A stretch of DNA of 37,652 nucleotides, taken from positions 1 to 37,652 of IMG/VR virus record IMGVR_UViG_3300009481_000002. One strand, written 5' to 3'. The notes beneath the pieces were generated by a model, which saw only the letters and a list, made by a program, of their open reading frames with translations, did not search any database and was not told where the DNA came from. Made by a program: the position numbers and the translations under genes. This DNA comes from a virus. Positions 1-37,652 of this stretch are shown here, in pieces (position 1 is the stretch's first letter; the number at the start of each line of letters is the position of its first letter).

Positions 1-123
1 ACACCTTTATAAACAAACGCAGGATTTTCTATAGCTAGCCCAGCCCACCTGCCAATAACTTCTTGCCACGCATTAAAGAACGGCGACATAAAACCAACCA
101 TTTCAGCAAATTCGCTGTGTTCA
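1..123. repeat. Terminal duplication copy 1. It is identical to 37530-37652 and marks a circular assembly overlap.
   Basis: Base-by-base comparison: acacctttataaacaaacgc...ttcgctgtgttca occurs at both window ends (123 nt). The repeat lies inside an open reading frame. Confidence 0.95.
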
Positions 124-3100
124 GCTAGCTCATACATAACTTCTCTAGTGTCTTTAAAAGCTGCTTTACGTGCTTCGTCTTCCATACGCACAATATCAGC
201 AGGTGTTAAATCATACGTGCCGTCAGCTTTAGCGTAAGGCGCTGCGCTATCTATTAAATGCGTCCTATACCTAGATTCAAAAAATGGTCCTCTTGAAATA
301 TCATCTGCTGCGCCTGTGCCAAGATTTTGAAATGTTTTATCAATCAAATCACGTGTCCATTTTATAAAACCTTCTTGTTTTGCTGATGGTTGACTAATAG
401 AATCTCTAGCTTTACCAAACCCTCCACGTGAAGAGTTATCTTTTACACGAATTTGAGCAATAATTTCGTTAGCTTTACTACCATCAAATCCATGTCTAGC
501 TATAAACTCTGGATCAGTTAATGTCGATTTAACATCATCCCAACTAATTTCCTCACCTGCACGCACCTTGGCACGCAAATCAGGGAAATATTCAGGAGGA
601 AGAAAATCATTAACTTCATCAATAGCGTCTTCAGCTATTTCTTTAAATATTTTTCTATCAGCGCCTTTTCCTTCATAACCTTTTATTTGATACTTACGTT
701 GCAAACGAGGCGTGTTCTCAATTAAAGTAGCAATAGCTTCAACTTTTTGCACGTGAGACAAACTGTCATTATACATAATGTTATAAAATTGTATTTCTTT
801 AGTACCTGTACGTGACATCTGCATATAAGTACGTGTCCACGCTGTTCTCATTTGAGATGCAGTAACACCTTCTTTAAGAACATCAACAATTTCCCATCCT
901 TCACCTATGTTTTCATTTATTTGACGTTTAGCAGCAGCAACAGGTCCACGCATAGATGTGTCAAGACTATTAGCGCTAGATAACTGCCTTTGAGACATGC
1001 GTTGGAACCTTAAATCAGAACCCCACGCATTACCAAAAGTTGCGTTACCAATAGTTTGTCTAGGGTAACCAGCTTTTTCCCACCACATATCAGCTTGGTC
1101 AAATAAACTAACAACCTTATCTTTATCAGCCCAAGACAAACCAAAATTATATTCATCTTCAAGCCACGCTAAATCTTTTAACAACTGATCGCCACTAGAA
1201 CTTAAACGTTCAGCAAGTTCTATAACAGTTATATCATCTGCTGCTTCTCCTATTATACGTGCAGCGTCAATTTGAAACGCATTCGCTAATTGCGCTGCTG
1301 AACTTTTAACAGCATACTTTTGTAAATTCTTAGTACGGTTTTTCCAATATCTAAAACCCCAACCAGCCCCAAGCAAAGGATTAACCATACCCCCTACAAG
1401 CGCACGTGCAGTTATGCCAAGACCTTTTCTACGTGAAGGGCTTATTTTAGTAGCTTTTTCTTTAGCTTTTAAAGCGTCTTCTATATAACGAGCAGAAGCA
1501 CTATCCATAACAGCTTCTAAATTTAAACCTCGTTCTTCAACAAATTTAACTATATCTATTAGCGTCGCATCATTAGAAACTTTTGGCACGTCTTTACTTT
1601 TTGCAAAATTTTTATTTAATTCATTTCGCAACGCAACAGAAAAACCTTCATCAGTCAAATTCAAACCACGTGCCTGCATATTTTGAACCCAACGATTAAA
1701 CCCCTTGTTAAGCGTACCTAACATAGGTAGTACTCCCATGACAGCAGCAGCACGCAACTTTTCATCAGTTAACACACGCACAGTCCAACGAGGCGTTAAC
1801 AATTTACCAGCAGTCCAAACTTCCTGTAAACCTTTAGCAGCCACAGGAACTGCTTTAGCGTATTTGCTTCGTTTAAGATTTACTAACTTTCCTTCTTTTT
1901 GCGTCCCACGTTTACCGCCACCAAAATAATCAGTTCTATTCATTGATCTATTAATTTCACGTTGCAACAAATCAAATCTAGGAATAATAGAACATTCAGC
2001 TAACTGAGCTAAACTTAAATTATACGTATACGTATGTATACCTTCATTAACAGGAACGTTAGTATACGTATGCTCCTCAGTATACGCTTTACGTTCTGTT
2101 ACAAGTTGACCATCTTCATCGTATATACGTTTGCCACGCATCCCAGTTTCATCAACAGTGTACTTAGTTTCACTCATATCAATAGGTTTAAATTCTTTAT
2201 TATCTAACCTATTAAGAAAATCTTTTTGAGCGCCATTTAATTGCTTAACAAGATAGTCTTTAGGTATATCAACTAATGCGCCTGTATCGTCATAAATTTT
2301 AATATCTTGTTTACGCATCATGCCTTCAGCCCTGTAAACCAATTTGCTCATTGTTGCTGTGTAAAATTCAACAAACGTTGAGTAATCTTCACCTTTAAAA
2401 ACATATTCATTCCATTTGCCTAAAATTTCTACAGCTTCTTTTTCAGAAAGCAATCTTTTGCCACCAATAACAAATTCTGAAGCGTCTTCAATAACACGCT
2501 CAAACATAACCGTAGATTGCCCACCTAAATCAGTAAAATGGATTAAGCCTTGAGGCACACGGCTAGTAAATATTTTTAAAGCCTTTATTCCCAAAGGCAA
2601 AAACACAGACGGATTTGAATACGCCTTATCAAAAGTAGTAACAACAGTGTCATGATTAGACGTAAATTTATTGCCAGTAGTTTCTTTTACTTTATTTAAA
2701 TGATTCCTATGAACTACACCAATCGGTTGATAAATTTTTCTATTGCCAACAGATTTAACAATATTGTCAGCCAACAAAGCATCTTCAACAATTTTATCTA
2801 CAACAATTTGAGCAGTAATTCTATCTAAATTATCCCATTCATCAACTTGCGATTTAGGAAGCGACACATCGCCGTTAGCATCTAAAGTAACTTTCTTTTG
2901 TTGCGATACTTTAATCTGATTATAAAAATCAAAATGGTATTCCCAATGAACATCATTAAAAACTTGACCTTCAATTTTTAATTCCGCTTCTAACGCATCG
3001 TTTCTAACAGATTCTTCTCGAACAAAATTTTCATCTTTAACTCGTTCAACTTTTAAATCTTCTATTTCTTGTTTTAAAGCATTTATTTCTCTGGTATTAG

Positions 3101-4835
3101 CAGCACGCCTAGTTTTAAGAATACGCCGACGAGTATCATCTACAGATTCAATACCACCTTCAAACGAATCAGAAATTCTACGTGCTTGTTGTATTTCAAC
3201 AGGCAAAACTTCTGTAGAAATTAATTCACGTTTTTCTTGTAACTTTTCAATCCTATTTCTTAACGTAGATATTTTACCGTTAGTACCGTCAATACGTTTT
3301 CTTGCCCTAGTTATATCACGATCAACGTCATCTAATAATTTAATTCTTTTACCATAATCACTATCTATTAAAACAGCGCCAGCTTGCCTAATAACTTCTG
3401 CTATTTCACCCTTAACAGTTGTATCGCCTAAATACTCACGCAAAATTCTTTGAGCAGCAAGTTTACTAGGAGCAGTAGCTAACGCTGTCTGCACACGCTC
3501 AGGTAATTTAGTATTATTTTTCCTACCAGCAGCTTGTCTCCAACGAACACCACGTTCATTAATTAATGTTTGGTCAGCGTCAGTAGAAACAATTTTACTA
3601 GACTTATACTGTGCAGAAAATTTATTATCAGGAACAGCGTCCATAACCGTATTCCACGTGTCATTAAACCATTTGCTTTCAGCCATACCTTTAGCTTGTT
3701 CAGTTGTAACAGTTTTACGCAACGCTAAATCTTGTTCAGTTAAATTATTAGGCTTATTAAACCGATCTTTGACTTTAGAAACCATCCCTTGAGGAGGCGT
3801 TAAACTATCTGGTTTTTGAATCGCTGACGTTGTTATATCTTTATCGTAAACAATTTTACGAACATTGCCAGTTCCTTCAACAACCCATATTTTATTAGGC
3901 ATAGCTTGACGAACTGGTATAAACGGAACACCATAATCATATATTCTTACAAGATCTCCAGCGTCGTTTAACTTAACTATTGCCGTTTCACCACGTGATA
4001 TGTTTTTAGTTCCTCTAATAGCTCTTTCTAAAGGATCTTTCCATTCTTTAATTAAATCTGCTGTACCTGAAATAACAGTAAATAAATCGTTTGTTTTAAT
4101 AGCGTTATAAGCTTCTTCATCAAATGGATCTATTGCATATAAACCAGTAGCTAACGCTTGACCTGCTGAACGTTCTTGAACCCATGCAACATCGTATGCT
4201 TGTTTCCATTCGTTAGCGTCAAATAAAACACTGTACGTATTGTAATCAAGCAAATTTAAAGGGTTATTTCCTGCTGCGTCTTGCACTCTATTTATCATCG
4301 TAAATGTCATTGACAATGGATTATCTACTAAATTATTAAAAGCCCAATGCAAACCTTCTACGCCTTCTTGAACAGCAGGTCTTGTAACATCACGTATTTC
4401 TTCTGGAACTAAACCAAAAGTACCGCCACCTAAACCTTTAGAGGCAAACAATCCATAGCCAGATCCCATGCCTTCATTCTCAGGGTCAAGAGGTAAACCT
4501 AAGATATCACGTGCTATGTCTTCTCTACCGTATTGAATTATTGCAGCCAACGGATCTTCCCAAAGAGCTACCCTGTCGCCATTACCAAAAATTTGTCTTC
4601 CACTATCAAATAAAAGGTTTTTACCTATTACAACAACTGTGCCTCCAGCGCCACGAAAAAGATTAGTAGTGGCTACAAAAGGTCTAAGCGTTTGAGTAAC
4701 AGCACGTTCAGGTTGAAACAATGCCCCATAAATAGGAACACTTTTTGCTGCTTCTTGTATCGGATCAGGAATAATCTTGTCAACAAGATCTTGTGCGTCG
4801 CCTGCTTTGTCTTTAAGATAATCGTACAAGCCCAC
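1..4835 (-). CDS. Giant virion-associated protein, N-terminal ~1,611 codons. It is one 2,129-aa ORF that continues at 37529 down to 35975. Function is unknown; it is a putative internal or ejection protein.
   Basis: Manual reverse-complement translation from GTG 4835-4833 (first start after in-frame TAG at 4845-4847) reaches base 1 with no stop. The frame matches the ATG at 99-101 (= 37628-37630), since 4835-101 = 3x1578. The track lists no minus ORF here because the frame never closes inside the window. A long coiled-coil-like K/E/R-rich segment is encoded around 2990-3320. Confidence 0.8.
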   Translation of the reverse strand, partial: MGLYDYLKDKAGDAQDLVDKIIPDPIQEAAKSVPIYGALFQPERAVTQTLRPFVATTNLFRGAGGTVVVIGKNLLFDSGRQIFGNGDRVALWEDPLAAIIQYGREDIARDILGLPLDPENEGMGSGYGLFASKGLGGGTFGLVPEEIRDVTRPAVQEGVEGLHWAFNNLVDNPLSMTFTMINRVQDAAGNNPLNLLDYNTYSVLFDANEWKQAYDVAWVQERSAGQALATGLYAIDPFDEEAYNAIKTNDLFTVISGTADLIKEWKDPLERAIRGTKNISRGETAIVKLNDAGDLVRIYDYGVPFIPVRQAMPNKIWVVEGTGNVRKIVYDKDITTSAIQKPDSLTPPQGMVSKVKDRFNKPNNLTEQDLALRKTVTTEQAKGMAESKWFNDTWNTVMDAVPDNKFSAQYKSSKIVSTDADQTLINERGVRWRQAAGRKNNTKLPERVQTALATAPSKLAAQRILREYLGDTTVKGEIAEVIRQAGAVLIDSDYGKRIKLLDDVDRDITRARKRIDGTNGKISTLRNRIEKLQEKRELISTEVLPVEIQQARRISDSFEGGIESVDDTRRRILKTRRAANTREINALKQEIEDLKVERVKDENFVREESVRNDALEAELKIEGQVFNDVHWEYHFDFYNQIKVSQQKKVTLDANGDVSLPKSQVDEWDNLDRITAQIVVDKIVEDALLADNIVKSVGNRKIYQPIGVVHRNHLNKVKETTGNKFTSNHDTVVTTFDKAYSNPSVFLPLGIKALKIFTSRVPQGLIHFTDLGGQSTVMFERVIEDASEFVIGGKRLLSEKEAVEILGKWNEYVFKGEDYSTFVEFYTATMSKLVYRAEGMMRKQDIKIYDDTGALVDIPKDYLVKQLNGAQKDFLNRLDNKEFKPIDMSETKYTVDETGMRGKRIYDEDGQLVTERKAYTEEHTYTNVPVNEGIHTYTYNLSLAQLAECSIIPRFDLLQREINRSMNRTDYFGGGKRGTQKEGKLVNLKRSKYAKAVPVAAKGLQEVWTAGKLLTPRWTVRVLTDEKLRAAAVMGVLPMLGTLNKGFNRWVQNMQARGLNLTDEGFSVALRNELNKNFAKSKDVPKVSNDATLIDIVKFVEERGLNLEAVMDSASARYIEDALKAKEKATKISPSRRKGLGITARALVGGMVNPLLGAGWGFRYWKNRTKNLQKYAVKSSAAQLANAFQIDAARIIGEAADDITVIELAERLSSSGDQLLKDLAWLEDEYNFGLSWADKDKVVSLFDQADMWWEKAGYPRQTIGNATFGNAWGSDLRFQRMSQRQLSSANSLDTSMRGPVAAAKRQINENIGEGWEIVDVLKEGVTASQMRTAWTRTYMQMSRTGTKEIQFYNIMYNDSLSHVQKVEAIATLIENTPRLQRKYQIKGYEGKGADRKIFKEIAEDAIDEVNDFLPPEYFPDLRAKVRAGEEISWDDVKSTLTDPEFIARHGFDGSKANEIIAQIRVKDNSSRGGFGKARDSISQPSAKQEGFIKWTRDLIDKTFQNLGTGAADDISRGPFFESRYRTHLIDSAAPYAKADGTYDLTPADIVRMEDEARKAAFKDTREVMYELAEHSEFAEMVGFMSPFFNAWQEVIGRWAGLAIENPAFVYKG

Positions 4836-4836
4836 G

Positions 4837-5205
4837 TTACGAACCTAGTTCTTCTATAGGTCCAATCGCTACACGCATCTCACGAACTATTTGCCTCAAC
4901 TCTGGTGAAGCATCTCGTTGAGAAGCCATTTTTTCTAAAACAGGCAATGAAGTCAACATTTGAAATTTACGTGTTGCCGATATTGGCCTACTCGCAGGTC
5001 TTGTCGATTGAGAAGTTAACACAGATTCGTTGCGTCGTTCTGTCGGCCTATTAAAAGGAACTTCACCAGCTTTCATAGCAACTCTAGGAGGTTCTTCCAT
5101 CCGTGGCAAAGGAACAACAGCTTGCGCTTCACGTTGCTCTTTAACTTTACCATACTGTTGGTCAGCAACAGTTTGTATTTTTTGTCCTTTACCTTTTCTA
5201 GGCAT
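4837..5205 (-). CDS. Hypothetical protein (122 aa) between portal and giant ORF
   Basis: Track ORF. Its ATG overlaps the portal stop as TAATG (5203-5207). Its own stop lies 1 nt before the giant ORF GTG. Confidence 0.6.
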   Translation of the reverse strand: MPRKGKGQKIQTVADQQYGKVKEQREAQAVVPLPRMEEPPRVAMKAGEVPFNRPTERRNESVLTSQSTRPASRPISATRKFQMLTSLPVLEKMASQRDASPELRQIVREMRVAIGPIEELGS

Positions 5206-6974
5206 TACAACGCTCCTAACAACTCACGCAAACCGCCAGCCCCACCTTGAGCAGGAGGAGGTGGACTAGCCATTGCCTCTGCTCCTGCTCCGGCTTGGGC
5301 TATACCAGCTTGTGCTTCAGGGGATGTAGGCGAAACCATTGTGGCTTGCCTTTCTTGCGCTTCACGCTGTACTTTTTCGACAGCTTCAGCAAGTTCAGCT
5401 TTATCTGATTTAACAAGATCAATAATTCGAGCAAGATCAGAAGGCGGTATCGCCCCTCCTGCTGCTTGTTGCTGCAAACTAGCAAGCAAACTTCCTTCTA
5501 ATTGTTCCGCAGTAACAGAATCAAGTTCAGCTTCAACATCCTCAACAAGAGGATCTATTTTCATAAACGATTCTTTCGACATTGTACCCATAGCCAAACG
5601 TTGACCGCCAGCGATAACAAGGTTGTTAATATCAGCGCCAGCCTGACTGTACGAAACAACGTTGTCGTCGGTTGTAAAATGTTTGTTGGGGACATAATCT
5701 ACCTTGCCTTTTACTTTATTCATAGAAACATAAAACGATTTAGATTTATTGCCAGCATACGATTTAGCCATAGCAATAGCTACTTTATTTTCTGCTTCTA
5801 AAGAACGAGCAAGTATTTTTTGAGATTCTTGCACAGCAAAATCAACAACCGCAGAAAGCACAGCGTCGCCACGGCGACCAGTACGAATATTGCTAGTAGA
5901 TTCTCCACCAAATTCGGCAGGCACACCAGCAGTTAAACGCTGCGCCCTTTCTAAACGATCAATTGCAGGGTTAGTCATAAACCCTACATTTAATTGCATA
6001 TCTTTTAAATCACCGCCACGAATAACACCAACTTCTCCAGTTAAACCATTCGCAGGGTTAACAATATTTGGTTGCTCACCAGCACGGCCAACAAGCCACG
6101 TATCAGGAAAAATACCTTTCTGGACGGCTATCACTTCCAACGCCATAAGTTTTGCCTGTTGTTGATACATCCCAAGAATGCCATCAAACTGGCCGTTAGG
6201 TTGATCTAAAGAAATACGTTCTGCCATAATGACAGGACATACGCCTGTAGGGTTATGTGTTCGTTCTAACTCAGCAACAACAGGCCCAGTATCATTATTA
6301 CGTGAATACATGCCAACGCTATTAGCTGGATGCCGGACCGCTACAAGCACATACTCTTCATGGTCCACATACTCAATAAGTTCAATTGGTTTATCATTAT
6401 CTAACGGAGCGTTAGAAACGCCAGCAAACCGCAAAGCAGCTTCAGGATAAGATTTTCTAACCCAACCATACGAACGTTCATACCCAAACACGCAATCAGA
6501 AGGAGTCATATTATCAGCGCCACGTAAATTAGACGGATACGCTGTCAACGGGTCACGAACATGCCACGTCGGACATCCTTTTTCTTGATTAAAACGTATT
6601 TGAACAATAGTGTTAGAATATCCAATTAAATGACGTGCCCTTTTAGCTAGTTGCATGTCAATTCTTGAGTTCTGCCACCAACCAAACAACGCTTTACGAC
6701 GAATCGCAGAATATTTCTGAGCTTGTTTAGATGTTTCATCTTCAGGAGGGCAAATAATATCAGGAGTAACCGACGCTATACGCATAGCAGTTTGATCTAA
6801 ACCCTGCGCCAACAAATTAGCTACAGCAGAAGATTCTGTCGTATCTATTTCAGGAAGCGGAACAATAACATCGCCATTGTAATGATCACGTATATGCCGC
6901 ATTTTTTCTTTTACACCAGCATTATTAGATGAACGGGTGTAGTACAGGTCTACAATTTCTTCTGCTGTTTTCAA
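5205..6974 (-). CDS. Putative portal protein (589 aa)
   Basis: Size and position immediately downstream of TerL. The C-terminal tail is A/G/P-rich and low in complexity. The start is TTG at 6974 with no clear SD; the alternative ATG at 6902 is possible. Confidence 0.55.
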   Translation of the reverse strand: MKTAEEIVDLYYTRSSNNAGVKEKMRHIRDHYNGDVIVPLPEIDTTESSAVANLLAQGLDQTAMRIASVTPDIICPPEDETSKQAQKYSAIRRKALFGWWQNSRIDMQLAKRARHLIGYSNTIVQIRFNQEKGCPTWHVRDPLTAYPSNLRGADNMTPSDCVFGYERSYGWVRKSYPEAALRFAGVSNAPLDNDKPIELIEYVDHEEYVLVAVRHPANSVGMYSRNNDTGPVVAELERTHNPTGVCPVIMAERISLDQPNGQFDGILGMYQQQAKLMALEVIAVQKGIFPDTWLVGRAGEQPNIVNPANGLTGEVGVIRGGDLKDMQLNVGFMTNPAIDRLERAQRLTAGVPAEFGGESTSNIRTGRRGDAVLSAVVDFAVQESQKILARSLEAENKVAIAMAKSYAGNKSKSFYVSMNKVKGKVDYVPNKHFTTDDNVVSYSQAGADINNLVIAGGQRLAMGTMSKESFMKIDPLVEDVEAELDSVTAEQLEGSLLASLQQQAAGGAIPPSDLARIIDLVKSDKAELAEAVEKVQREAQERQATMVSPTSPEAQAGIAQAGAGAEAMASPPPPAQGGAGGLRELLGAL

Positions 6975-8892: not shown

Positions 8893-9159
8893 CTACCATT
8901 TAACTTTATTAGCCCAATACGCAGCAGACATCTTACCTTTTTTAATGTTCTTCGCATGACGGGCTTTAAACGACCTAGACCTAGCAGTATTACCCTTATC
9001 ACCAGTTTTACCCTGCTGCCCAAATCGAATAGTTTTAATTTGATTACCTTCTTTAGCCACAACAACATGCGACTTTGTTTTATGCTTAGGAGTACGCTTT
9101 GGCTTATTATATCCAGATACGCCAGCTCTAGCTAAACGAGGATCTTTCTTAGAAGGCAT
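8893..9159 (-). CDS. Ultrabasic small protein (88 aa)
   Basis: Track ORF. Hand count gives 25 K/R against 3 D/E. The stop TAG abuts the terL ATG, and the ATG overlaps the upstream stop as TAATG. Confidence 0.7.
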   Translation of the reverse strand: MPSKKDPRLARAGVSGYNKPKRTPKHKTKSHVVVAKEGNQIKTIRFGQQGKTGDKGNTARSRSFKARHAKNIKKGKMSAAYWANKVKW

Positions 9160-10837: not shown

Positions 10838-11077
10838 ATGAGTGAAAAATTCACTATTGAGATAGAGCCGGATTATTTATCTACTGGAGCGCATGTTGCC
10901 AGCCGGATATTAGAGGCACGGCCCGACAATATGACCGTCGCTGCTTGGCGTGCGATTGTGGTTACATTCGCTGACCATATCCGCTACCTAGCTTTTAAAG
11001 CTGCGGATGCTCCCGAAGGTGAACTAAGTGATTATCATAAGCTTATGGTTCACTTGGATACGTACCTACCTCGCTAG
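10838..11077 (+). CDS. Hypothetical early protein (79 aa)
   Basis: Track ORF with the extended SD AGAAAGAAGG. Confidence 0.7.
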   Translation: MSEKFTIEIEPDYLSTGAHVASRILEARPDNMTVAAWRAIVVTFADHIRYLAFKAADAPEGELSDYHKLMVHLDTYLPR

Positions 11078-11143
11078 GTTGTGCTTTGAGCATTAGAAAT
11101 AGTGCTCTTAGTAGTGCTTAGCGCACTGGAAAGAAGGAAAATA
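11078..11143 (+). repeat. Two-hairpin intergenic module U1
   Basis: It has the GTTGTGCTTTG box. Hairpin 1 is GAGCAT...GTGCTC (11088-11107). Hairpin 2 is AGTGC-TTAGC-GCACT (11113-11127). GGAAAGAAGG follows. Confidence 0.8.
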
Positions 11144-11326
11144 ATGAAATACAGCGTATGGTATGGCATAGATGGATGTTTACCTGAACAAGAGTATCCA
11201 CTATTTGAATCAAATAACTATCGTGAATGTAAATCATTCATAACTAACGAACGTAAAGAGTTTATCGCAGAGTTTGGTAAACCATCCAAATATAATTTGT
11301 ACGATTGGTACATTCACGAACACTAG
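11144..11326 (+). CDS. Hypothetical early protein (60 aa from ATG 11144)
   Basis: The track ORF 11102..11326 starts at an alternative codon inside module U1. ATG 11144 has the conserved SD spacing. Confidence 0.65.
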   Translation: MKYSVWYGIDGCLPEQEYPLFESNNYRECKSFITNERKEFIAEFGKPSKYNLYDWYIHEH

Positions 11327-11393
11327 GTTGTAGGTTGAGCATTGGAGACAGTGCTTTTCCTAGTGCCTAGTGGCACGGAAAGAAGGAAAAGAT
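11327..11393 (+). repeat. Two-hairpin intergenic module U2
   Basis: It has the GTTGTAGGTTG box. Hairpin 1 is AGCATT...AGTGCT (11338-11355). Hairpin 2 is GTGCC-TAGT-GGCAC (11363-11376). GGAAAGAAGG follows. Confidence 0.8.
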
Positions 11394-11729
11394 ATGCTTA
11401 ATTGGTATAACAAAGAAGTAGACCTCGACCGTTGGCGTAGAGGTGATCGGTATTATCACTGGTGTGACGCATTCAACGACAGCGAAGACCCTTGTGAAGA
11501 ATTTGGGAACATGCACTGGGACTTATGTACCAAGTGCATTAAGCTCCCTGACTTGTATGATCGGTTAGACTTTGAGCATCACAAACAATACAAAAACACT
11601 AAAGGTAGCCATATTGATGGACCTTGTGCTAGACCTGAATACTATTGGAAGTATGATAGCTACACGGGTGACGCTGAACCAAGCGGAGAGTATCTGTGCG
11701 ACGTGTGCAAGATAGTCTTGAATCACTAA
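11394..11729 (+). CDS. Cys/His-rich early protein (111 aa from ATG 11394)
   Basis: Track ORF trimmed to the SD-supported ATG. It contains several C-x2-C-like pairs (CTKC, CDVC). Confidence 0.65.
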   Translation: MLNWYNKEVDLDRWRRGDRYYHWCDAFNDSEDPCEEFGNMHWDLCTKCIKLPDLYDRLDFEHHKQYKNTKGSHIDGPCARPEYYWKYDSYTGDAEPSGEYLCDVCKIVLNH

Positions 11730-11795
11730 GTTGTGCTTTGGACATTCGTGAGAGTGTCCTTAGTAGTGCTTAGTGCACTGGAAAGAAGGAAGATA
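11730..11795 (+). repeat. Two-hairpin intergenic module U3
   Basis: It has the GTTGTGCTTTG box. Hairpin 1 is GGACAT...GTGTCC (11740-11759). Hairpin 2 is AGTGC-TTAGT-GCACT (11765-11779). Confidence 0.8.
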
Positions 11796-12083
11796 ATGTC
11801 AGAAAGAATAACTACACAAGATTTAGAGCGTCAAGTAGAAGTGTTAAACGGTTACTTTGGTATTCGGGATAGCAATGCTGTAGGACGCTTTGAAATTGAG
11901 TATGCCTATGGTGATTGCCGATTAGTACGAATTCTTAATGAAGGCAATGGCGAACGTGATATGTCTAAACGTGGTACTAAGCGTGAGATATACGAAAAAC
12001 TTTACGCCATTAACAAAGTCATTTACGAATTTAAGGATGACTTTGGAATAGCAGTAGACAAAGTAGACCGGCTTAACGCTTAA
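11796..12083 (+). CDS. Hypothetical early protein (95 aa from ATG 11796)
   Basis: Track ORF trimmed to the SD-supported ATG. Confidence 0.65.
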   Translation: MSERITTQDLERQVEVLNGYFGIRDSNAVGRFEIEYAYGDCRLVRILNEGNGERDMSKRGTKREIYEKLYAINKVIYEFKDDFGIAVDKVDRLNA

Positions 12084-12157
12084 CGCTGCTAAGTTGTGGG
12101 TTGAGCATCAGCGATGGTGCTTTTCCCAGTGCTTAGCACTAGAAAGAAGGGAAAGAT
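12084..12157 (+). repeat. Two-hairpin intergenic module U4
   Basis: It has the GTTGTGGGTTG box. Hairpin 1 is AGCATC...GGTGCT (12104-12121). Hairpin 2 is AGTGC-TTA-GCACT (12128-12140). Confidence 0.8.
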
Positions 12158-12439
12158 ATGAATCGAAAAGAAATCGAACAAATAATGATGACATCAGAAG
12201 TCACAGCCCTGCACCAATTATGGGACAAGATGCTACAACTCATTGAAGATGCAGTACCTCAACAGGGTAAGTGGACTTTTACAAGAACCAATTACAATGG
12301 TCACCGCATAACATTTACGTTTGAGAGAGATCAAATCATTGAGCAAATTTTTAGCGATAGCCTTGACCGCTGGTCTGATCTTAAAGTCATTACGGAAGAT
12401 ATGACATCTTTAGAAATTGTAAATTTTATTAACCAATAG
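12158..12439 (+). CDS. Hypothetical early protein (93 aa)
   Basis: Track ORF with the extended SD. Confidence 0.7.
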   Translation: MNRKEIEQIMMTSEVTALHQLWDKMLQLIEDAVPQQGKWTFTRTNYNGHRITFTFERDQIIEQIFSDSLDRWSDLKVITEDMTSLEIVNFINQ

Positions 12440-12509
12440 GTTGTGCTTTGGACATTGGAAACAGTGTCTTTAGTAGTGCCTAATGGGGCGCTAGAAAGAA
12501 GGAAAAGAT
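12440..12509 (+). repeat. Two-hairpin intergenic module U5
   Basis: It has the GTTGTGCTTTG box. Hairpin 1 is GACATT...AGTGTC (12451-12468). Hairpin 2 is AGTGCC-TAATGG-GGCGCT with one G-U pair (12475-12492). Confidence 0.8.
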
Positions 12510-14639: not shown

Positions 14640-14870
14640 ATGGACTGGAGAGAGAAAGCTGGCTGTCGTGGCATGACTACGATATTCTATTCGGACCAGC
14701 ATCGTAAGTGTAGATTCATTTGCGATTCTTGTCCTGTGTTTGAACAGTGTATTGCTACGTCTGTTGAGGATGAGCCAGACCCTTTCCAACTCTGGGGTTT
14801 CAGACATGGGATGACTGCATCAGAGCGTCATCGTTGGCGTATGATGAAGGCCCGACTTGACAGCGTGTGA
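14640..14870 (+). CDS. whiB: WhiB-family Fe-S transcription factor (76 aa)
   Basis: It has four Cys in the WhiB pattern (AGCRG ... C-DS-C-PVFEQ-C), an LWGFRHG turn resembling G[VI]WGG, and a basic C-terminal tail. Confidence 0.8.
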   Translation: MDWREKAGCRGMTTIFYSDQHRKCRFICDSCPVFEQCIATSVEDEPDPFQLWGFRHGMTASERHRWRMMKARLDSV

Positions 14871-18831: not shown

Positions 18832-18998
18832 TCAATCCAAACACCTATCATGTGGCAAATGAACGACCCTACGGTAAGCCAGATACCGTACTCCCTAGTC
18901 TCACCAGACAATGTAATAAGCACAATGCCTGTTGAACCAGCAGTAAGAGACAAAGCAAAAATTTCCTTTGTTACTCTTTTAACTCTACGCTTTATCAT
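18816..18998 (-). CDS. Small two-TM membrane protein (60 aa from ATG 18998; the track gives GTG at 19031)
   Basis: Track ORF. It has a basic N-terminus followed by two hydrophobic segments. Confidence 0.45.
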   Translation of the reverse strand: MIKRRVKRVTKEIFALSLTAGSTGIVLITLSGETREYGIWLTVGSFICHMIGVWIDWKDE

Positions 18999-25542: not shown

Positions 25543-25546
25543 GCAC

Positions 25547-27283: not shown

Positions 27284-27292
27284 ACAAAACCC

Positions 27293-31663: not shown

Positions 31664-32689
31664 CTAAGCTATTTGTGCAGCGCCTAGCCCAGAAGCACCA
31701 GTTTGTTGCAACAAACTACCAGCTCCAGCCTGTTGCGTCTGTTGCCTTCTTTCACGCATACGTCTAACTAAAGTAGCGTCATCAGCGTCTAAACCAAAAG
31801 CAGAAGAAGCTAACGTATCAACAGAAACACCTTGGCTTCTTAACGTAGACTGTGTTAAACCAGCGCTAGATGCTAAAGCACGCACTGAAACTGGTTGCAC
31901 ATCAGGTTGCCTAGCTAACTGTTCAGCCACACCAGTATTAAACCCTTCACCTAAAGTGCTTTTAGCTGTAGAAGATAACCCAGCAGCAGTCATTTGCAGT
32001 TTTAATTCCATTAACGGAACAGCCCTATCAGGATCTAAGAAATACGATATTAAATCTCCGTCGTCTATTTCTGGATACAACCGCCGTAACTCTTCATCTA
32101 AATTAGGATCAATTTCTGATACTGCTTGCGCTGCTAACGCTGTACGTGTAGCAAATTCTTCAGGCGAAACATCGTTACCTATAAAAGACGCAAAATCTTC
32201 AGGCGAATCATAAAAAGATTCAGGCAAACCAAATTCAGCTAAAACACTAGCGTAATTATTTTCTAATTCAAGGTATCTAGCTTCTGAAACTTGATTCAAA
32301 CCGTTTTCGCTACGAATACCCATACCAGCAAACCGATCTTTATATTCATCTGTTCCTCGTAACCGAATTTCCATTTGCTGAACTGAAAGATTTAAAGAAA
32401 CCCATTCTTTAATTTTACCTACTAAAGATAAAGGTAAATCATATTGATTTAACAAGTTCTCAAGTATGTCGTATGCTTCGTCTGCATTATATTCTGGTGT
32501 AGATGATACTGGTGTATTTGGTACTGGTGTATTTTGATCTATAAAAGGATTTGGCGCTACATACAAATCATCTTCAAAACCAGAGCCAATTGTATAATCA
32601 GTAGTATCTCCACCAACAATATCGGCTACACCAAAAGGATCATAATTTTCCAGAGCTTCTGTAGCTTCTTCTGGAACATAAAATGTCAT
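31664..32689 (-). CDS. Hypothetical virion protein (341 aa)
   Basis: Track ORF. It is part of the low-GC block. Confidence 0.6.
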   Translation of the reverse strand: MTFYVPEEATEALENYDPFGVADIVGGDTTDYTIGSGFEDDLYVAPNPFIDQNTPVPNTPVSSTPEYNADEAYDILENLLNQYDLPLSLVGKIKEWVSLNLSVQQMEIRLRGTDEYKDRFAGMGIRSENGLNQVSEARYLELENNYASVLAEFGLPESFYDSPEDFASFIGNDVSPEEFATRTALAAQAVSEIDPNLDEELRRLYPEIDDGDLISYFLDPDRAVPLMELKLQMTAAGLSSTAKSTLGEGFNTGVAEQLARQPDVQPVSVRALASSAGLTQSTLRSQGVSVDTLASSAFGLDADDATLVRRMRERRQQTQQAGAGSLLQQTGASGLGAAQIA

Positions 32690-32692: not shown

Positions 32693-34807
32693 TTAAACCC
32701 TCCCAAACGAATCAGCTAAAGCATCAACAAGACTATATATCTTTTCTTGCCCTTTATTACTACCTAAATAATCTCCAGTAGAGCGCACATAATTTTCTGC
32801 TTCCCAAGTAGTCATCAATCTAGGGCTACCTGAATTATCAACATAATTTATAACCGGATTCCATTTACTATCACGCAAATCAACTTTCTTACCTAACAAA
32901 TTCTCAATAGATGTTTCAGTATTAAAAAGTAACTGCTTAGGAGTTACCCCTAATTTTGTAGCTTGCTCTTCTAAATGCGGATAAGCAATATACGCTTGAT
33001 CCTGCAACATTTGTTTAAATTCTTCTTGAGTTAAATCACCAGTAAGCAACTGCTCTGCATATTCTCTAGCTTGTTCTTCATTCATATTTAAATAATAATC
33101 GCCAGCAGTTACTAAAGTATTTTCTACCATTCCTTGAAATTCATTTAACTCATTAACCATTTCTTTATTTTCAATTTCAGCAAAAATAGTTTTATACAAC
33201 GTATCAGTATTTGTTTGTGTAACAGGGCCATTTAATCTTTGAAACTGATAAGCTAAATTATAAACTTCTTGGTCAGATAACTCATACCCAAGACCTCTAA
33301 GGCTATCGCTCACTTGATCTATAGTCGCTTGCAAAAATTCTAAACGATCTGCCTCACTCTTCTTTTGATACTCAACATCGAACTCACGCATACGTGAATT
33401 ATTTTCCATACCCCATTCAGTTTTACGCAACAAACTCGGAATTTGGTACAGCATAGCGTTTTCAGTAGTCGGGTCTATATTAGTTGATTCTATATAAGTA
33501 ACAACGTCTACTTCTGTTAATTTTGAAGGATCGTTATATGCAACAGGGTTACCATTAATATCAAGCCCTATATATAAATCACCTCTTATGTCACGGTCAT
33601 ACATAAAGAAACCAAACGCACCGTATTGTTCACTTAAACCAGTTGCATCTCCTAACGTATCCGCAAAAGATGGAATCCCTAAAAACGGTCCGCTACCACT
33701 CAAAGTTGTTTCTTGAGCAGGTTGAGCTTGCGTCCCAGAAGAACGTAAAGAACCATCTGCCATAAATGCCCTAGACGACATGCGGTTTTGTTGGCCAGTA
33801 CCTTGATTGCGAGATCTAGTAGCTCCAACATAACCCGTGTCTTTAGGAAGAGCAGCGCTACCACCTTGGAACGGATCGCCCATACCAAATTCTCTTAACG
33901 TGCCAGTAGCTGCGTGTGCAGCAACCTCTTTACTTCTTCCAGTTCTTATAAGATTAGCTTCATCATTTCGCCTGCCATACAAAGCACCGCCATCATTAGA
34001 AGCTAAACCATATTCTGTATTATCAATATAATCAGCTAACGCTAAAACATCGCCAGTATCTACAGCTTTATTAATTTCTTTAACAAAATCTGGGCCACCA
34101 GCAGAACCATAATTATACGTAATTGACATAACCGCAGCTTGCGTATTCGCATCTAAAGACTGATACCTTTCTTGCCCAGCAGCTAACAACTCTTCTCTAT
34201 TCTCAAACCCATAAATAGTTACATGGCCATATTGATCTAATTCAACATACGGTTCAGCAGCACCTGAAGGCAACGGAGCGTATTTTTCACCATCAGCCTC
34301 CGAACTAATAAAATCATACTGCCAACCATCACCAAACCTATTAATATAATCTTGATCGCTACTACCTTTACGCAAACTAGCGGTATTCAATGCAAGTTCA
34401 GCAAATAAAATTTCTCTATGTTTTTCAATTTCTTGATCTAAACGAGCAAGAGCTGTTTCTTTATCCATAGTGTCGCCCATTTGAACGCCACCAGTAAACC
34501 CAAACCCTATAGTCGGCACATCATCGCCACGCAAAGGATCTGAATAAGCATTTTCACGGAACCCTTCATGCGCCATAATTACCGCACGTTCTAACTCTAT
34601 ATTTTGATTACGTGAATCACGCAACTCATTTTCAACTCTTCTTTGAGAATCCAACGTAGCTTTTTCCGCATCAAACGACCTAATCAACTCAAGCGCAAAC
34701 TTATAATCTCCGTCAGTTTCAGCTAAATTTTCAAACTTATTCCAATCAATATTAGGAATAGCCATAGTGCCTCCCATCAGCAACACTACTAACCAACGCA
34801 AAAACAT
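32693..34807 (-). CDS. Internal virion protein with a lysozyme-like (GH24-type) domain (704 aa; the alternative start ATG 34765 follows GGGAGG)
   Basis: AHEGFRENAYSDPLRGDDVPTIGFGFTGG fits the E-G...AY-D...TIG-G signature of phage lysozymes. YGRRNDEANLI lies near the end of the domain. Confidence 0.6.
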   Translation of the reverse strand: MFLRWLVVLLMGGTMAIPNIDWNKFENLAETDGDYKFALELIRSFDAEKATLDSQRRVENELRDSRNQNIELERAVIMAHEGFRENAYSDPLRGDDVPTIGFGFTGGVQMGDTMDKETALARLDQEIEKHREILFAELALNTASLRKGSSDQDYINRFGDGWQYDFISSEADGEKYAPLPSGAAEPYVELDQYGHVTIYGFENREELLAAGQERYQSLDANTQAAVMSITYNYGSAGGPDFVKEINKAVDTGDVLALADYIDNTEYGLASNDGGALYGRRNDEANLIRTGRSKEVAAHAATGTLREFGMGDPFQGGSAALPKDTGYVGATRSRNQGTGQQNRMSSRAFMADGSLRSSGTQAQPAQETTLSGSGPFLGIPSFADTLGDATGLSEQYGAFGFFMYDRDIRGDLYIGLDINGNPVAYNDPSKLTEVDVVTYIESTNIDPTTENAMLYQIPSLLRKTEWGMENNSRMREFDVEYQKKSEADRLEFLQATIDQVSDSLRGLGYELSDQEVYNLAYQFQRLNGPVTQTNTDTLYKTIFAEIENKEMVNELNEFQGMVENTLVTAGDYYLNMNEEQAREYAEQLLTGDLTQEEFKQMLQDQAYIAYPHLEEQATKLGVTPKQLLFNTETSIENLLGKKVDLRDSKWNPVINYVDNSGSPRLMTTWEAENYVRSTGDYLGSNKGQEKIYSLVDALADSFGRV

Positions 34808-35974: not shown

Positions 35975-37652
35975 CTAGTCTGCCCAACTGTTCTTGGGAA
36001 TAAGATCATTCTCTAAAAACCTTGAATAGAACAAAGCAAAATCTGGCCTAGTAGCAAACTCAGATCTAACTTGATCCCACTCATACATTAATAATCTATT
36101 GTTATCAGCTTCCAAAGAACTACTAGGCAACCTTCTCAAATCATTTTCAAAATCGTTCCGAATATCTAAATACTCTACAAGGCTACCAATCCAAGGCTTA
36201 TACGCTAACGACGGTTCTTCAACCAAAGCCCTAGCGCCTTCCATTACCTCAGCAATATAATTAGAAGAACTAAATTCTTCAATCGCTTCACCAAACAACG
36301 GATATTTTTCACTAAGTTCTGCTTTTTTGAGATCATAATATAGCTTTAAACCAGAATGAACAGCAGCAGAAGGCGAATTACTTAACCCATCATTAGCATA
36401 CAACAACTGATTATAAGACGGGCTTCCTTCTACACCATCTATTGGGCTATCTTTCCAAGCGTTTAATTCAGTATATCCACGTGACACTTCTGTCTGTTTA
36501 ATAAATTCTTCAGGCGTATAAATTTCACGCCATCCTTCATTCATAAAAATTTGTTGAACAGCCGGTGAAAACGCCCCATCTTCAATAGCGCTGACACGCA
36601 AAGAATTAGTTACAACAGAAGTCATTACAGGATATTTTTCTATAAAATCTTTATGTTTTTGAGATAATTTAAACGACTCTATTGTCGGAGCAACACCTTT
36701 AGCATTTCTAGTTGCGTTACCGCTTAGAAAGAAAAACTCTTCGCCGTAAAGATTAAGGAATTGGTTAACAGCCCATTCAGGTTCTAAACCTAAAGCTCTA
36801 CCATGTTCTTCTAATTGATTTAATTTTATAATATACGGTTCATACGGAGAACCTTCAGCAGAAGCTACAGGTATTACAGTAGTTGCAAGAAACTTTAAGA
36901 ACCCGACACTTTGTGTCATTTCTTCAGCTTTAGCTATAACGTTACTTTGTACTTCAGGGTCAGTGTAGTCGTAAGGAGTTCCTGCTTCTCTAGCTTTAAC
37001 GTCAAGGTAAGTCACCATATCAATCATGGTCAATCCGTAGTTTTGTTTATTGCCGTAACGGAAAGGGTTATCTGGATCTAACGCTGTGTAGTATAAATGA
37101 TCGGCCCATGACGGAGTAAATTCTTGAACAAAACGTTCAACAAAGTTTCCATCTGGGTGGCCGAATGGGAACATCCATCCAGCAACTTTTTCTATTTCAG
37201 GTTTTTTAAAATCAAACATAAACGTTCGTAAAGGCAACGTAATAAACGGGCCAGCACTAGGAGTTGTTTTAGTTAACATCGTAAACAACCCATCTTTATC
37301 TAACTTAATTCCAACCTCGTCAACAAGCTCACCGACACTACCAATAGGAGAACTAGGCAACACCTGATTAGCAGCGTCACTAATACTATTAGTAAATTTA
37401 GGATTAACTAACAACGATGCAAGAGCGCTATCTTTAGGTCTAAACACAACATTTAAATTTCCGTATTGATCTTCTTCTTGTGTTAACCCTAGGATCGGCA
37501 ATTCAACATCATCTTTAGTAAACAACCGAACACCTTTATAAACAAACGCAGGATTTTCTATAGCTAGCCCAGCCCACCTGCCAATAACTTCTTGCCACGC
37601 ATTAAAGAACGGCGACATAAAACCAACCATTTCAGCAAATTCGCTGTGTTCA
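35975..37652 (-). CDS. Giant virion-associated protein, C-terminal part. It is the same ORF as 1..4835, and 37530-37652 duplicates 1-123.
   Basis: The track ORF 35975..37630 stays open upstream to the window end (EHSEFAEMVGFMSPFF...). The full ORF is 6,390 nt, or 2,129 aa, in the circular genome. Confidence 0.8.
   Translation of the reverse strand, partial: EHSEFAEMVGFMSPFFNAWQEVIGRWAGLAIENPAFVYKGVRLFTKDDVELPILGLTQEEDQYGNLNVVFRPKDSALASLLVNPKFTNSISDAANQVLPSSPIGSVGELVDEVGIKLDKDGLFTMLTKTTPSAGPFITLPLRTFMFDFKKPEIEKVAGWMFPFGHPDGNFVERFVQEFTPSWADHLYYTALDPDNPFRYGNKQNYGLTMIDMVTYLDVKAREAGTPYDYTDPEVQSNVIAKAEEMTQSVGFLKFLATTVIPVASAEGSPYEPYIIKLNQLEEHGRALGLEPEWAVNQFLNLYGEEFFFLSGNATRNAKGVAPTIESFKLSQKHKDFIEKYPVMTSVVTNSLRVSAIEDGAFSPAVQQIFMNEGWREIYTPEEFIKQTEVSRGYTELNAWKDSPIDGVEGSPSYNQLLYANDGLSNSPSAAVHSGLKLYYDLKKAELSEKYPLFGEAIEEFSSSNYIAEVMEGARALVEEPSLAYKPWIGSLVEYLDIRNDFENDLRRLPSSSLEADNNRLLMYEWDQVRSEFATRPDFALFYSRFLENDLIPKNSWAD
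37530..37652. repeat. Terminal duplication copy 2. It is identical to 1-123.
   Basis: Same 123-nt string as the window start. This implies a unit genome of 37,529 bp. Confidence 0.95.

What the first reader, a model, noticed from the sequence alone, without database searches (positions are those of the whole stretch)
1..4835. A 2,129-aa ORF (17% of the genome) sits between portal and scaffold and has no recognisable domain
Joining 4835..1 with 37529..35975 gives one uninterrupted 6,390-nt frame that is translationally coupled to the 122-aa gene (TAA-C-GTG). I could not see polymerase, Walker, protease or glycosidase signatures. The only feature is a long K/E/R-rich heptad-like segment encoded around 2990-3320. 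Its position after the portal, and before two more large proteins (one with a lysozyme domain), suggests an ejected internal core protein like T7 gp16, or a MuF-type fusion. Nothing else in this genome is large enough to hold a polymerase or helicase, so it is also the only place a cryptic enzymatic activity could hide.
Basis: partly seen in the sequence, partly recalled or inferred. Interest (0 to 1): 0.65.

Follow-up and report, generated by a model that had tools for sequence, protein, structure and literature searches.

The report
Giant uncharacterised actinophage virion-module protein
The 2,129-residue gene is real and belongs to a very large, never-characterised family found right after the portal gene of small short-tailed phages of Actinobacteria; it is most likely a capsid-internal protein ejected to help deliver the DNA, not a hidden enzyme.

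Summary
The window ends in an exact 123-bp overlap, so the genome is a 37,529-bp circle. Joining 4835..1 with 37529..35975 gives one 6,390-nt frame of 2,129 aa, 17.0% of the genome, that starts TAA-C-GTG after the 122-aa gene. Pfam, NCBIfam, PDB sequence searches and Foldseek find no known domain. It is not an orphan. An exhaustive profile search finds 3,558 protein clusters sharing its C-terminal ~650 residues. All are 1,300-3,200-aa "hypothetical" proteins (PHROG 10618), including gp9 of the Streptomyces podoviruses of cluster BF. The order TerL, portal, small gene, giant gene, cell-wall hydrolase, scaffold, capsid recurs in distant relatives. The models are 62-69% helix and 2-5% strand, at low confidence. 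The 43 best-conserved C-terminal columns are Pro, Gly and aromatic residues, with no Asp, His, Ser, Cys or Lys. Next to a marine relative with 92%/88% identical TerL/portal, the giant gene and its neighbours are only 29-48% identical. The best reading is an ejected, internal DNA-delivery protein, analogous but not homologous to T7 gp15/gp16 (confidence about 0.5). A MuF fusion, tape measure, polymerase and DarB-like enzyme are not supported.

The parts
1..4835 (-). Giant ORF, first part: GTG start at 4835..4833, codons 1-1611 plus two bases of codon 1612
35975..37529 (-). Giant ORF, second part: last base of codon 1612, codons 1613-2129 and the stop TAG at 35977..35975
   Evidence: colinear homologues
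37530..37652 (.). Exact duplicate of bases 1-123: the overlap of a circular or permuted assembly, not extra genome
3996..4553 (-). Conserved N-terminal module (about aa 95-280; motifs FGPxGxGG..P..VR, VDxPL, RSxGQ, DPFD, SGTxD..E..DP), all-helical in the model
2955..3356 (-). It is lineage-specific: found in 12 of 150 family representatives
1542..1613 (-). Insertion hot spot (about aa 1075-1098). Homologues carry extra inserts of 220-970 aa here; this phage carries none
1335..1421 (-). Conserved hydrophobic Gly/Pro segment flanked by basic residues (aa 1139-1167, R.L.G..INPL.GA.W..R...SRTK), the most hydrophobic stretch of the protein. It recurs at the same relative position in many family members
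1..398 (-). Start of the family-wide C-terminal module (aa 1480-1611), including the signature ..YELAE....E....PFFNAWQE..GRWAG
4837..5205 (-). 122-aa gene (phrog_8200, unknown function) whose stop lies 1 nt before the giant ORF's start. A gene of 121-130 aa holds this place in relatives
5205..6974 (-). Portal protein gene (589 aa)
   Evidence: phrog_104 E 1.5e-6; 88% and 44% identical to the gene at the same place in L002 and L008
34823..35965 (-). 380-aa acidic protein with no family match, directly downstream. It co-diverges with the giant gene
32693..34807 (-). 704-aa protein with an N-terminal phage-lysozyme domain. It is distinct from the lysis endolysin, so it is probably a virion-borne cell-wall hydrolase for entry
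   Evidence: PF00959 42 bits; phrog_7; separate endolysin and holin at 27293-28260
31664..32689 (-). 341-aa acidic protein (phrog_8424), last gene of the fast-diverging block. It has a homologue in FlowerPower (gp13)

Best explanation
The 2,129-aa protein is a structural, non-enzymatic virion protein. I propose that a few copies are built into the procapsid next to the portal and leave through the portal and short tail at infection. There it would work with the neighbouring 380-aa protein and the 704-aa lysozyme-bearing protein to cross the actinobacterial cell wall and membrane and lead the DNA in. That makes it a functional analogue of the T7 gp14/15/16 or P22 gp7/20/16 ejection proteins, from an unrelated family. 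Proposed division of labour (inferred): the conserved N-terminal module anchors it in the capsid or at the portal; the variable helical middle, including the 130-residue charged hairpin, acts as a spacer; the conserved hydrophobic Gly/Pro segment (aa 1139-1167) inserts into the membrane; the family-wide C-terminal 650 residues form the conduit or DNA-leading part. In some relatives a hot spot after about aa 1075 carries extra domains that would be delivered into the cell. Shown here: the gene, its family, its conserved neighbourhood, its predicted helical nature (from low-confidence models), the type of conserved residues, and its fast co-divergence with neighbours. Inferred: presence in the virion, ejection, and membrane insertion.
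For: (1) Place in the genome. The gene lies inside the head-assembly operon, 1 nt after the small gene that follows the portal gene, and 9 nt before the next gene. (2) Conserved neighbourhood in distant relatives. The order TerL, portal, a 121-130-aa gene, the giant gene, 2-4 genes including a cell-wall hydrolase, a ~150-aa gene, then the capsid gene appears in a TARA marine phage, a freshwater contig, a contig with an SU10-type capsid and an M23 peptidase, and Streptomyces phage FlowerPower, whose hydrolases are NlpC/P60 and SLT. These Streptomyces phages are podoviruses by electron microscopy (PMC9753666), so they have no tape measure to extend the tail. (3) A second, dedicated endolysin and a holin exist elsewhere, so the 704-aa lysozyme protein next to the giant gene is best read as an entry enzyme. 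This parallels the lytic transglycosylase domain of T7 gp16 (annotation). (4) AlphaFold2 models are 62-69% helix and 2-5% strand with low overall confidence. T7 gp15/gp16 being helical is my own recollection, not tested here. (5) Among 151 family representatives, the 43 columns conserved at 80% or more are P11, G9, F6, A5, R4, Y3, L2, W, E and Q. None is D, H, S, C or K, which is a structural rather than catalytic pattern. (6) Against a marine relative, TerL is 92% identical, portal 88%, scaffold-like 159-aa protein 74% and capsid 77%. The block of 122-aa gene, giant gene, 380-aa, 704-aa and 341-aa genes is only 37%, 32-40%, 29%, 39-44% and 48% identical. That is a co-diverging island, as expected for proteins that meet the host. 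(7) A positionally conserved hydrophobic Gly/Pro segment is present, and glycine-zipper-like segments occur in relatives. (8) An unrelated giant protein next to the portal gene of the actinobacterial podovirus Burro is virion-associated by SDS-PAGE (PMC7302621), which shows the precedent.
Against: There is no direct evidence that the protein is in the virion. No homology to any characterised ejection protein was found: hhalign against T7 gp15 and gp16 gives probabilities below 3%, and the family HMM does not match them. Structure models are of low confidence (mean pLDDT 52-54), so Foldseek is uninformative: no PDB match below E 0.1 and all TM-scores at or below 0.15. The hydrophobic segment is only moderately hydrophobic (Kyte-Doolittle 1.24) and is not a clear transmembrane helix. 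At 236 kDa per copy, the protein would have to unfold to pass a portal channel. The gene sits before the capsid gene, whereas the T7 and P22 ejection genes sit after the tail genes.
Confidence: 0.5

Rival explanations
1. It is an external or tail-associated structural protein, such as a tail hub, plug, needle or central fibre, or a tape-measure-like ruler, rather than a capsid-internal ejected protein.
For: It lies in the structural operon. It has long helices, and the only Foldseek hits in the viral library with names are tape measure or SMC-like helical proteins. The adaptor and nozzle proteins of this phage are not identified by any profile.
Against: Those Foldseek hits have TM-scores of 0.05-0.15 and reflect generic long helices. 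Cultured relatives are podoviruses. The gene lies between the portal and capsid genes, far from the fibre and tailspike genes at 23422-29472. Those downstream genes (309, 640, 269, 578 and 365 aa) can account for the tail. Podovirus nozzle and needle proteins are beta-rich or trimeric coiled coils of much smaller size (my own recollection).
Confidence: 0.15
2. It is a MuF / SPP1 gp7-type minor head protein. Such proteins are encoded right after the portal gene, bind the portal, are packaged in a few copies and often carry C-terminal toxin domains. Here it would be enormously extended.
For: It lies just downstream of the portal gene, which is the classical place for MuF-like genes. MuF-toxin fusions are described in Microbacterium phages (PMC7302621). 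Relatives carry variable inserted domains, one with a sub-threshold SLOG/YAcAr match.
Against: Pfam Phage_Mu_F does not match at E<=1 anywhere in the 2,129 aa, nor in 22 diverse family members. The variable domains are internal insertions, not C-terminal fusions, and the C-terminus is the most conserved part. A separate 122-aa gene occupies the position directly after the portal gene.
Confidence: 0.1
3. It is a virion-packaged or early enzyme of unrecognised fold, such as an RNA polymerase like N4 gp50 or crAss-like gp66, or a DarB-like anti-restriction methylase/helicase.
For: Its size is comparable to those proteins. The phage encodes no recognisable polymerase. The low model confidence means a novel fold cannot be excluded. 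The N-terminal module has three invariant Asp residues, D236, D239 and D260.
Against: There is no Walker A, no HExxH and no conserved DxDxD; DVDRD at 503 is lost in the 98%- and 64%-identical homologues. Only 2-5% strand is predicted, whereas double-psi beta-barrel and palm domains are beta-rich. Conserved C-terminal columns lack catalytic residue types. The phage carries WhiB, consistent with use of the host RNA polymerase. The protein diverges about 60% between phages whose TerL is 92% identical, which is unlike a core enzyme.
Confidence: 0.06
4. It is a non-virion assembly factor or host-takeover protein, for example a giant scaffold or chaperone made late but not packaged.
For: Its function is unknown. 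It is helical and charged like scaffolding proteins, and it is expressed with the head genes.
Against: A conventional small acidic scaffold candidate of 159 aa sits just before the capsid gene. Spending 17% of a 37.5-kb genome on a non-packaged helper would be costly. The conserved pairing with entry-type cell-wall hydrolases is not explained.
Confidence: 0.1

Closest known systems
gp9 of Streptomyces cluster BF podoviruses (Beephvirinae: FlowerPower, Manuel, Immanuel3, Abafar); PHROG family phrog_10618
   Same: True homologue. The family C-terminal HMM matches FlowerPower gp9 at E 1e-86, and tblastn aligns residues 1829-2121 at 24% identity. Both match phrog_10618. The place is the same: after the portal gene and before cell-wall hydrolases and the capsid gene. 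Capsid proteins are about 39-41% identical.
   Different: gp9 is 1,635 aa against 2,129 aa and lacks the close match in the N-terminal two thirds. In FlowerPower five small genes, not one, separate it from the portal gene. It is annotated only as 'hypothetical protein' in all 29 records, so membership gives no function.
T7 internal core / ejection proteins gp14, gp15 (747 aa), gp16 (1,318 aa)
   Same: Large proteins of a roughly 40-kb podovirus, encoded as a block with a cell-wall hydrolase activity (T7 annotation). This is the proposed way of working. The T7 proteins being helical is my own recollection.
   Different: No sequence or profile similarity. In T7 the hydrolase domain is part of gp16, whereas here it is on the separate 704-aa protein. 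The T7 genes follow the tail genes, whereas here the block lies between the portal and capsid genes. The host is Gram-negative there and actinobacterial here.
Giant proteins (>4,400 aa) of Microbacterium podoviruses, cluster EK and Burro gp27
   Same: Actinobacterial podoviruses with an outsized gene of unknown function adjacent to the portal gene. Burro virions contain a ~250-kDa protein ascribed to gp27, and no N4-type RNA polymerase motifs were found (PMC7302621).
   Different: No detectable homology to the C-terminal module. The gene is upstream, not downstream, of the portal gene, is twice the size, and sits in a different capsid lineage.
MuF / SPP1 gp7 minor head proteins
   Same: Encoded next to the portal gene. 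They are packaged in the head and often carry variable effector domains.
   Different: The Pfam Phage_Mu_F domain is absent. The variable domains of this family are internal inserts, and the protein is about five times larger.
Virion RNA polymerases of N4 (gp50, ~3,500 aa) and crAss-like phages (gp66)
   Same: Very large proteins packaged in podovirus heads and ejected into the host (my own recollection).
   Different: No polymerase motifs, almost no predicted beta structure, no conserved acidic residues in the family-wide C-terminal module (the N-terminal module does keep three Asp), and fast divergence.

Membership tests
phrog_10618 / Beephvirinae gp9-like giant proteins (uncharacterised) | C-terminal ~650-aa module with the signature ..Y[DE]LAE....(P)F.NAW.E...RWA.., PG.GP and PFGHP motifs | tested here: met
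   phrog_10618 E 3.8e-20. The profile search finds 3,558 clusters, 1,859 of them at E<=1e-30, nearly all matching at their C-termini. All three C-terminal sub-HMMs hit 148-150 of 150 representatives.
phrog_10618 / Beephvirinae gp9-like giant proteins (uncharacterised) | Encoded downstream of the portal gene and upstream of cell-wall hydrolase(s) and the capsid gene, in a podovirus-sized genome of about 35-46 kb | tested here: met
   Window; L001, L002, L008 and L009; longest contigs 35-40 kb.
T7-type internal core proteins (gp15/gp16) | Sequence or profile homology to gp15 or gp16 | tested here: not met
   hhalign probability 2.4% and 0.2%; the family HMM gives no significant hit.
T7-type internal core proteins (gp15/gp16) | Lytic transglycosylase or lysozyme domain within the polypeptide (gp16) | tested here: not met
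   None in the giant ORF. The Phage_lysozyme domain is on the separate 704-aa protein two genes downstream.
T7-type internal core proteins (gp15/gp16) | Present inside the capsid on the portal and ejected into the host envelope | not testable with these tools
   Needs virion proteomics, cryo-EM or cryo-ET.
MuF / SPP1 gp7 minor head protein | Phage_Mu_F domain (Pfam PF04233) | tested here: not met
   0 Pfam families at E<=1; none in 22 family members.
MuF / SPP1 gp7 minor head protein | Gene adjacent to and downstream of the portal gene | tested here: met
   Separated from the portal gene only by the 122-aa gene.
Tape measure protein | Encoded between tail-tube or chaperone genes and distal tail genes of a long-tailed phage; TMP Pfam domains | tested here: not met
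   It lies between the portal and capsid genes. No tail-tube or chaperone genes and no TMP domain were found. Relatives are podoviruses. Foldseek tape-measure hits have TM-scores of 0.11 or less.
Virion RNA polymerase (N4 gp50 / crAss-like gp66) | Conserved catalytic acidic motifs (DxDxD on a double-psi beta-barrel, or T7-like motifs A and C) | tested here: not met
   Only one D.D.D, at residue 503, which is not conserved in P0001 or P0002. No conserved Asp in the family-wide C-terminal module. Only 2-5% strand predicted. Caveat: the models are of low confidence.
DarB-like packaged methylase/helicase | Walker A/B helicase motifs and a methyltransferase domain | tested here: not met
   No G....GK[ST] motif; no Pfam or NCBIfam hit.
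Microbacterium EK/Burro giant protein | Sequence homology to Burro gp27 | tested here: not met
   The family C-terminal HMM against Burro gp27 gives E 0.1 and a negative score. tblastn of the window protein, P0012, P0015, P0058 and FlowerPower gp9 never hit Microbacterium phages.

The most novel reading that the evidence does not exclude
This family could be a new, single-chain type of DNA-delivery device for short-tailed phages of Gram-positive Actinobacteria. One giant helical protein would be stored in the head and refold outside it into a conduit across the envelope. Its internal hot spot would let phages plug in cargo domains that are injected ahead of the DNA: inserts of 220-970 aa in relatives, one with a weak SLOG-type nucleotide-binding match. 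The family is unrelated to the T7, P22 or N4 systems and is very abundant in marine and freshwater viromes.
Probability: 0.3. Interest if true: 0.65.

Novelty: new variant of a known kind. Interest (0 to 1): 0.42.

Why it matters
How podoviruses get DNA across the thick wall and membrane of Gram-positive and actinobacterial hosts is poorly understood. The model ejection proteins (T7, P22) come from Gram-negative systems. This gene takes one sixth of the genome. Its family has at least 3,558 clusters at 50% identity and is carried by small phages of abundant aquatic Actinobacteria and by cultivable Streptomyces phages. Yet every member is annotated 'hypothetical'. Because Streptomyces BF-cluster phages are in culture, the proposed role can be tested directly. 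A positive result would annotate thousands of viral 'dark matter' proteins and might reveal a route for delivering effector domains.

Tried and rejected
The following led nowhere.
- Domain and structure searches of the giant ORF. Pfam, NCBIfam and PHROGs gave only phrog_10618, of unknown function. PDB sequence searches with the protein and with the family profile found nothing.
- Structure prediction. AlphaFold2 on the two halves, with the 9-12 sequences the tool allowed, gave pLDDT 52-54. Foldseek against PDB (both halves) and BFVD (N-terminal half only) returned only generic long-helix matches.
- Comparison with known large virion proteins. hhalign against T7 gp15, T7 gp16 and Bacillus phage Page gp20 was negative. 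The family HMM against Burro gp27 was negative.
- Cultured relatives. tblastn of distant family members P0012, P0015 and P0058 against GenBank phages found no match.
- Inserted domains in relatives. Pfam and PDB searches gave only a sub-threshold YAcAr/SLOG match in P0042, plus a weaker trace in P0036 and a single GNAT hit in one member. An ART-like look of the P0008-10 insert (..VYRAVP..DWVTPS..) could not be confirmed.
- Host genomes. A scan of GTDB genomes found no relatives, and the C-terminal alignment was too divergent to scan with.
- N-terminal module. A word-index search returned only gene fragments.
- Literature. The papers read (Nanopelagicales phages, freshwater actinophages, Streptomyces BF phages, Abafar) say nothing about this protein.

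Readings rejected: tape measure, MuF fusion, virion RNA polymerase, DarB-like enzyme, and assembly artefact or frameshifted pseudogene.
Full report
1. The observation. The first 123 bases of the window are identical to the last 123. The contig is therefore a circular or permuted assembly of 37,529 bp. The reverse complement of 35975..37529 followed by 1..4835 is a 6,390-nt frame with a single stop at its end. It encodes 2,129 aa and takes 17.0% of the genome. The start reads ggt tcg TAA c GTG ggc ttg, so the GTG lies 1 nt after the stop of the 122-aa gene. The stop TAG is followed 9 nt later by the ATG of a 380-aa gene. No other ORF of 80 aa or more lies in 1-4835 on either strand. The join is genuine, because independent metagenomic homologues (P0002, 64% identity, 2,117 aa; P0006, 44%) align colinearly over the whole length and across the junction at residues 1611/1612. 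The N-terminus GLYD[YF].KDK is shared, which supports the GTG start. Residues 501-600 hold 24 K/R and 20 D/E. They are modelled as two long helices, 494-542 and 565-627, the most confident part of the model at pLDDT 70-89.

2. The genome around it. On the minus strand the order is as follows.
- An 88-aa very basic protein, then TerL (637 aa, phrog_38 E 1e-45), then portal (589 aa, phrog_104).
- The 122-aa gene, the giant ORF, a 380-aa protein with no match, and a 704-aa protein with a Phage_lysozyme domain (PF00959, 42 bits).
- A 341-aa protein, an acidic 159-aa protein, and the major capsid protein (312 aa, phrog_1357 E 4e-66).
- A 142-aa protein, a fibre (365 aa), endolysin (241 aa, PG_binding_1), holin, and tailspike (578 aa).
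- Proteins of 269, 131, 309 and 640 aa, a DnaQ-like exonuclease (252 aa, phrog_403 E 3e-86), and a 574-aa hyper-acidic protein.

The plus strand carries small early genes, including WhiB (PF02467, 34.7 bits, 14640-14870), SSB, a PD-(D/E)XK nuclease and an RHH protein. WhiB, the Streptomyces-phage relatives and an Acidimicrobiales-binned contig all point to an actinobacterial host. It is true that no other ORF matches a polymerase or helicase.

3. No known domain, but a very large family. Pfam gives no hit at E<=1 and NCBIfam gives nothing meaningful. PDB sequence searches give nothing with either the protein or the family profile. PHROGs gives only phrog_10618, of unknown function (E 3.8e-20, residues 1498-1646).
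- The word-index search found 12, then 18, relatives of 1,477-2,755 aa.
- The exhaustive profile search with residues 1000-2129 found 3,558 clusters (50% identity level) at E<=1e-3, and 1,859 at E<=1e-30. Nearly all are 1,300-3,200 aa long and match over their last ~610 residues.
- Every name on record is 'hypothetical protein', and the longest contigs are 35-40 kb.
- 17 of 22 diverse members match phrog_10618 and none has a significant Pfam domain.
- The only cultured carriers are the Streptomyces cluster BF phages (Beephvirinae). Their gp9 (1,635 aa) is hit at E 1e-86 by a family HMM. These phages are podoviruses by electron microscopy (PMC9753666). Their capsid protein is the closest cultured relative of the window's, at about 39-41% identity.

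4. Architecture of the family.
- Sub-HMMs show that the last ~650 residues are universal (148-150 of 150 representatives). A short central motif (WKP.VLL.P.W..RV..DE.LR, residues ~1005-1030) is found in 80 of 150. An N-terminal module (residues ~95-280) is found in at least 52 of 150. The charged hairpin is found in only 12 of 150.
- Just after residue ~1075 lies an insertion hot spot. P0003-5 carry +220 aa there, P0008-10 +280 aa, and P0036, P0037, P0042, P0132 and P0133 +750-970 aa.
- The insert of P0042 has a sub-threshold YAcAr/SLOG match (E 6.4e-5, 23 bits against a cut-off of 28).
- About 60 residues beyond the hot spot lies the most hydrophobic stretch of the protein (1139-1157, LGITARALVGGMVNPLLGA). 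It is flanked by conserved Arg and Lys. Equivalent Gly/Pro-rich hydrophobic segments recur 300-450 residues upstream of the C-terminal module in many members.

5. Structure. AlphaFold2 on residues 1-1100 and 1000-2129, with only 12 and 9 aligned sequences allowed, gave mean pLDDT 54 and 52. The models are 62-69% helix and 2-5% strand. Foldseek found no PDB match below E 0.1. In the viral library it found only generic long-helix proteins at TM-scores of 0.15 or less. These searches therefore neither support nor exclude any fold.

6. Evidence bearing on function.
(a) Synteny is conserved. The order TerL, portal, a 121-130-aa gene, the giant gene, 2-4 genes including a cell-wall hydrolase, a ~150-aa gene, then the capsid gene is kept in a TARA marine phage, a freshwater contig, a contig with an SU10-type capsid and FlowerPower. 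The hydrolase varies: lysozyme here, M23 peptidase in L009, and NlpC/P60 plus SLT in FlowerPower.
(b) The phage has a separate endolysin and holin. The lysozyme protein beside the giant gene is therefore best read as a virion-borne entry enzyme.
(c) In 151 representatives, the 43 columns of the universal module conserved at 80% or more are P11, G9, F6, A5, R4, Y3, L2, W, E and Q. None is D, H, S, C or K. That is a fold-defining pattern, not a catalytic one.
(d) Against the marine relative, the flanking genes are well conserved: TerL 92%, portal 88%, the 159-aa protein 74% and capsid 77% identical. The contiguous block is not: the 122-aa gene is 37% identical, the giant gene 32-40%, the 380-aa gene 29%, the 704-aa gene 39-44% and the 341-aa gene 48%. 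This is a co-diverging island, as expected for proteins that contact the host envelope or defences. It is unlike a core enzyme.
(e) There is no Walker A, no HExxH and no conserved DxDxD.

7. Most likely mechanism (confidence about 0.5). A few copies of the protein would be built into the procapsid at the portal. At infection they would be expelled through the portal and tail channel. Together with the 380-aa protein and the lysozyme-bearing 704-aa protein, the giant protein would open the wall, insert into the membrane through the conserved hydrophobic segment, and form or lead the conduit for the DNA. In relatives the hot spot would carry cargo domains into the cell. The proposed way of working is that of T7 gp14/15/16 or P22 gp7/20/16. 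Membership of those families fails, however: hhalign probabilities are below 3%, the family HMM does not match, the hydrolase is on a separate chain, and the gene position differs. Presence in the virion, ejection and membrane insertion are inferences.

8. Rivals.
- A tail-associated structural protein (0.15). The position between the portal and capsid genes, and the separate tail gene block, argue against it.
- A greatly extended MuF/gp7-type minor head protein (0.10). The position fits, but the Phage_Mu_F domain is absent.
- A non-packaged assembly or takeover factor (0.10).
- A cryptic enzyme such as a virion RNA polymerase or a DarB-like protein (0.06). Points (c), (d) and (e) above argue against it, but low model confidence means it is not excluded.
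- The giant proteins next to the portal gene in Microbacterium EK phages and Burro are a functional precedent. They are virion-associated by SDS-PAGE (PMC7302621). They are not homologous.

9. Novelty and verdict. The ORF is real and intact, and it is a member of an existing but wholly uncharacterised family. No characterised family is detectably related. The kind of thing it most likely is, a giant internal or ejected podovirus protein, is known. I therefore rate it a new variant of a known kind, with moderate interest (0.42). A phage specialist would not be surprised by the reading. The size of the family, its abundance in aquatic actinophages and the availability of cultured Streptomyces relatives do make the question experimentally tractable.

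Noticed in passing
window 11071-12508 (+): Five copies of a ~76-nt intergenic element (11071, 11320, 11723, 12086, 12433; 63-84% identical). Each lies just upstream of a small early gene, holds paired GTGCTT.G.GCA-type half-sites, and ends in GGAAAGAAGGAAAA..ATG. This is probably a repeated promoter/operator or terminator plus ribosome-binding unit.
   Followed up: partly
window 18985-20709 (-): A 574-aa protein with a strongly hydrophobic N-terminus (signal-like, Kyte-Doolittle 2.34), an N-terminal FDP_fam/DVUA0089 domain (E 1.2e-7), long Pro/Thr/Glu repeats and 169 Asp+Glu. It is an extremely acidic, probably secreted or surface protein at the end of the late operon.
   Followed up: partly
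window 8893-9159 (-): An 88-aa protein just upstream of TerL with 25 Lys/Arg and 3 Asp/Glu (phrog_7595). It is 70% identical in the marine relative. It may be a small terminase or a DNA-binding packaged protein.
   Followed up: no
window 14640-14870 (+): A 76-aa WhiB-type transcription factor (PF02467, 34.7 bits, above the cut-off). It is shorter than the 80-aa ORF threshold used at first. It supports an actinobacterial host.
   Followed up: yes
window 27293-28260 (-): The lysis genes (241-aa endolysin with a PG_binding_1 domain, 88-aa holin) sit inside the structural gene block, between the fibre and tailspike genes.
   Followed up: no
window 20732-21490 (-): A DnaQ-like 3'-5' exonuclease with a C-terminal zinc-ribbon-like match (phrog_403 E 3e-86). 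No recognisable DNA polymerase, primase or helicase was found anywhere in the genome.
   Followed up: partly
L002/L003 (TARA marine contigs) compared with the window: TerL and portal are 88-92% identical to the window's, and capsid is 77% identical. The five genes from the 122-aa gene to the 341-aa gene are only 29-48% identical. This is a sharp divergence island inside an otherwise conserved head module.
   Followed up: partly
homologues P0036, P0037, P0042 (inserts at about aa 806-1758); P0008-P0010 (about aa 1100-1400): Large lineage-specific inserts lie at one hot spot of the giant protein. The P0042 insert has a sub-threshold SLOG/YAcAr match. The P0008-10 insert has a conserved ..VYRAVP..DWVTPS..Y.E.F.. 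motif of unknown type.
   Followed up: partly
window 32693-34807 (-): The 704-aa lysozyme-domain protein begins with a hydrophobic stretch (FLRWLVVLLMGGTMAIPNI, Kyte-Doolittle 1.53). Its C-terminal half matches phrog_6654, of unknown function. The annotated start may be too far upstream, or the protein may be membrane-anchored.
   Followed up: no
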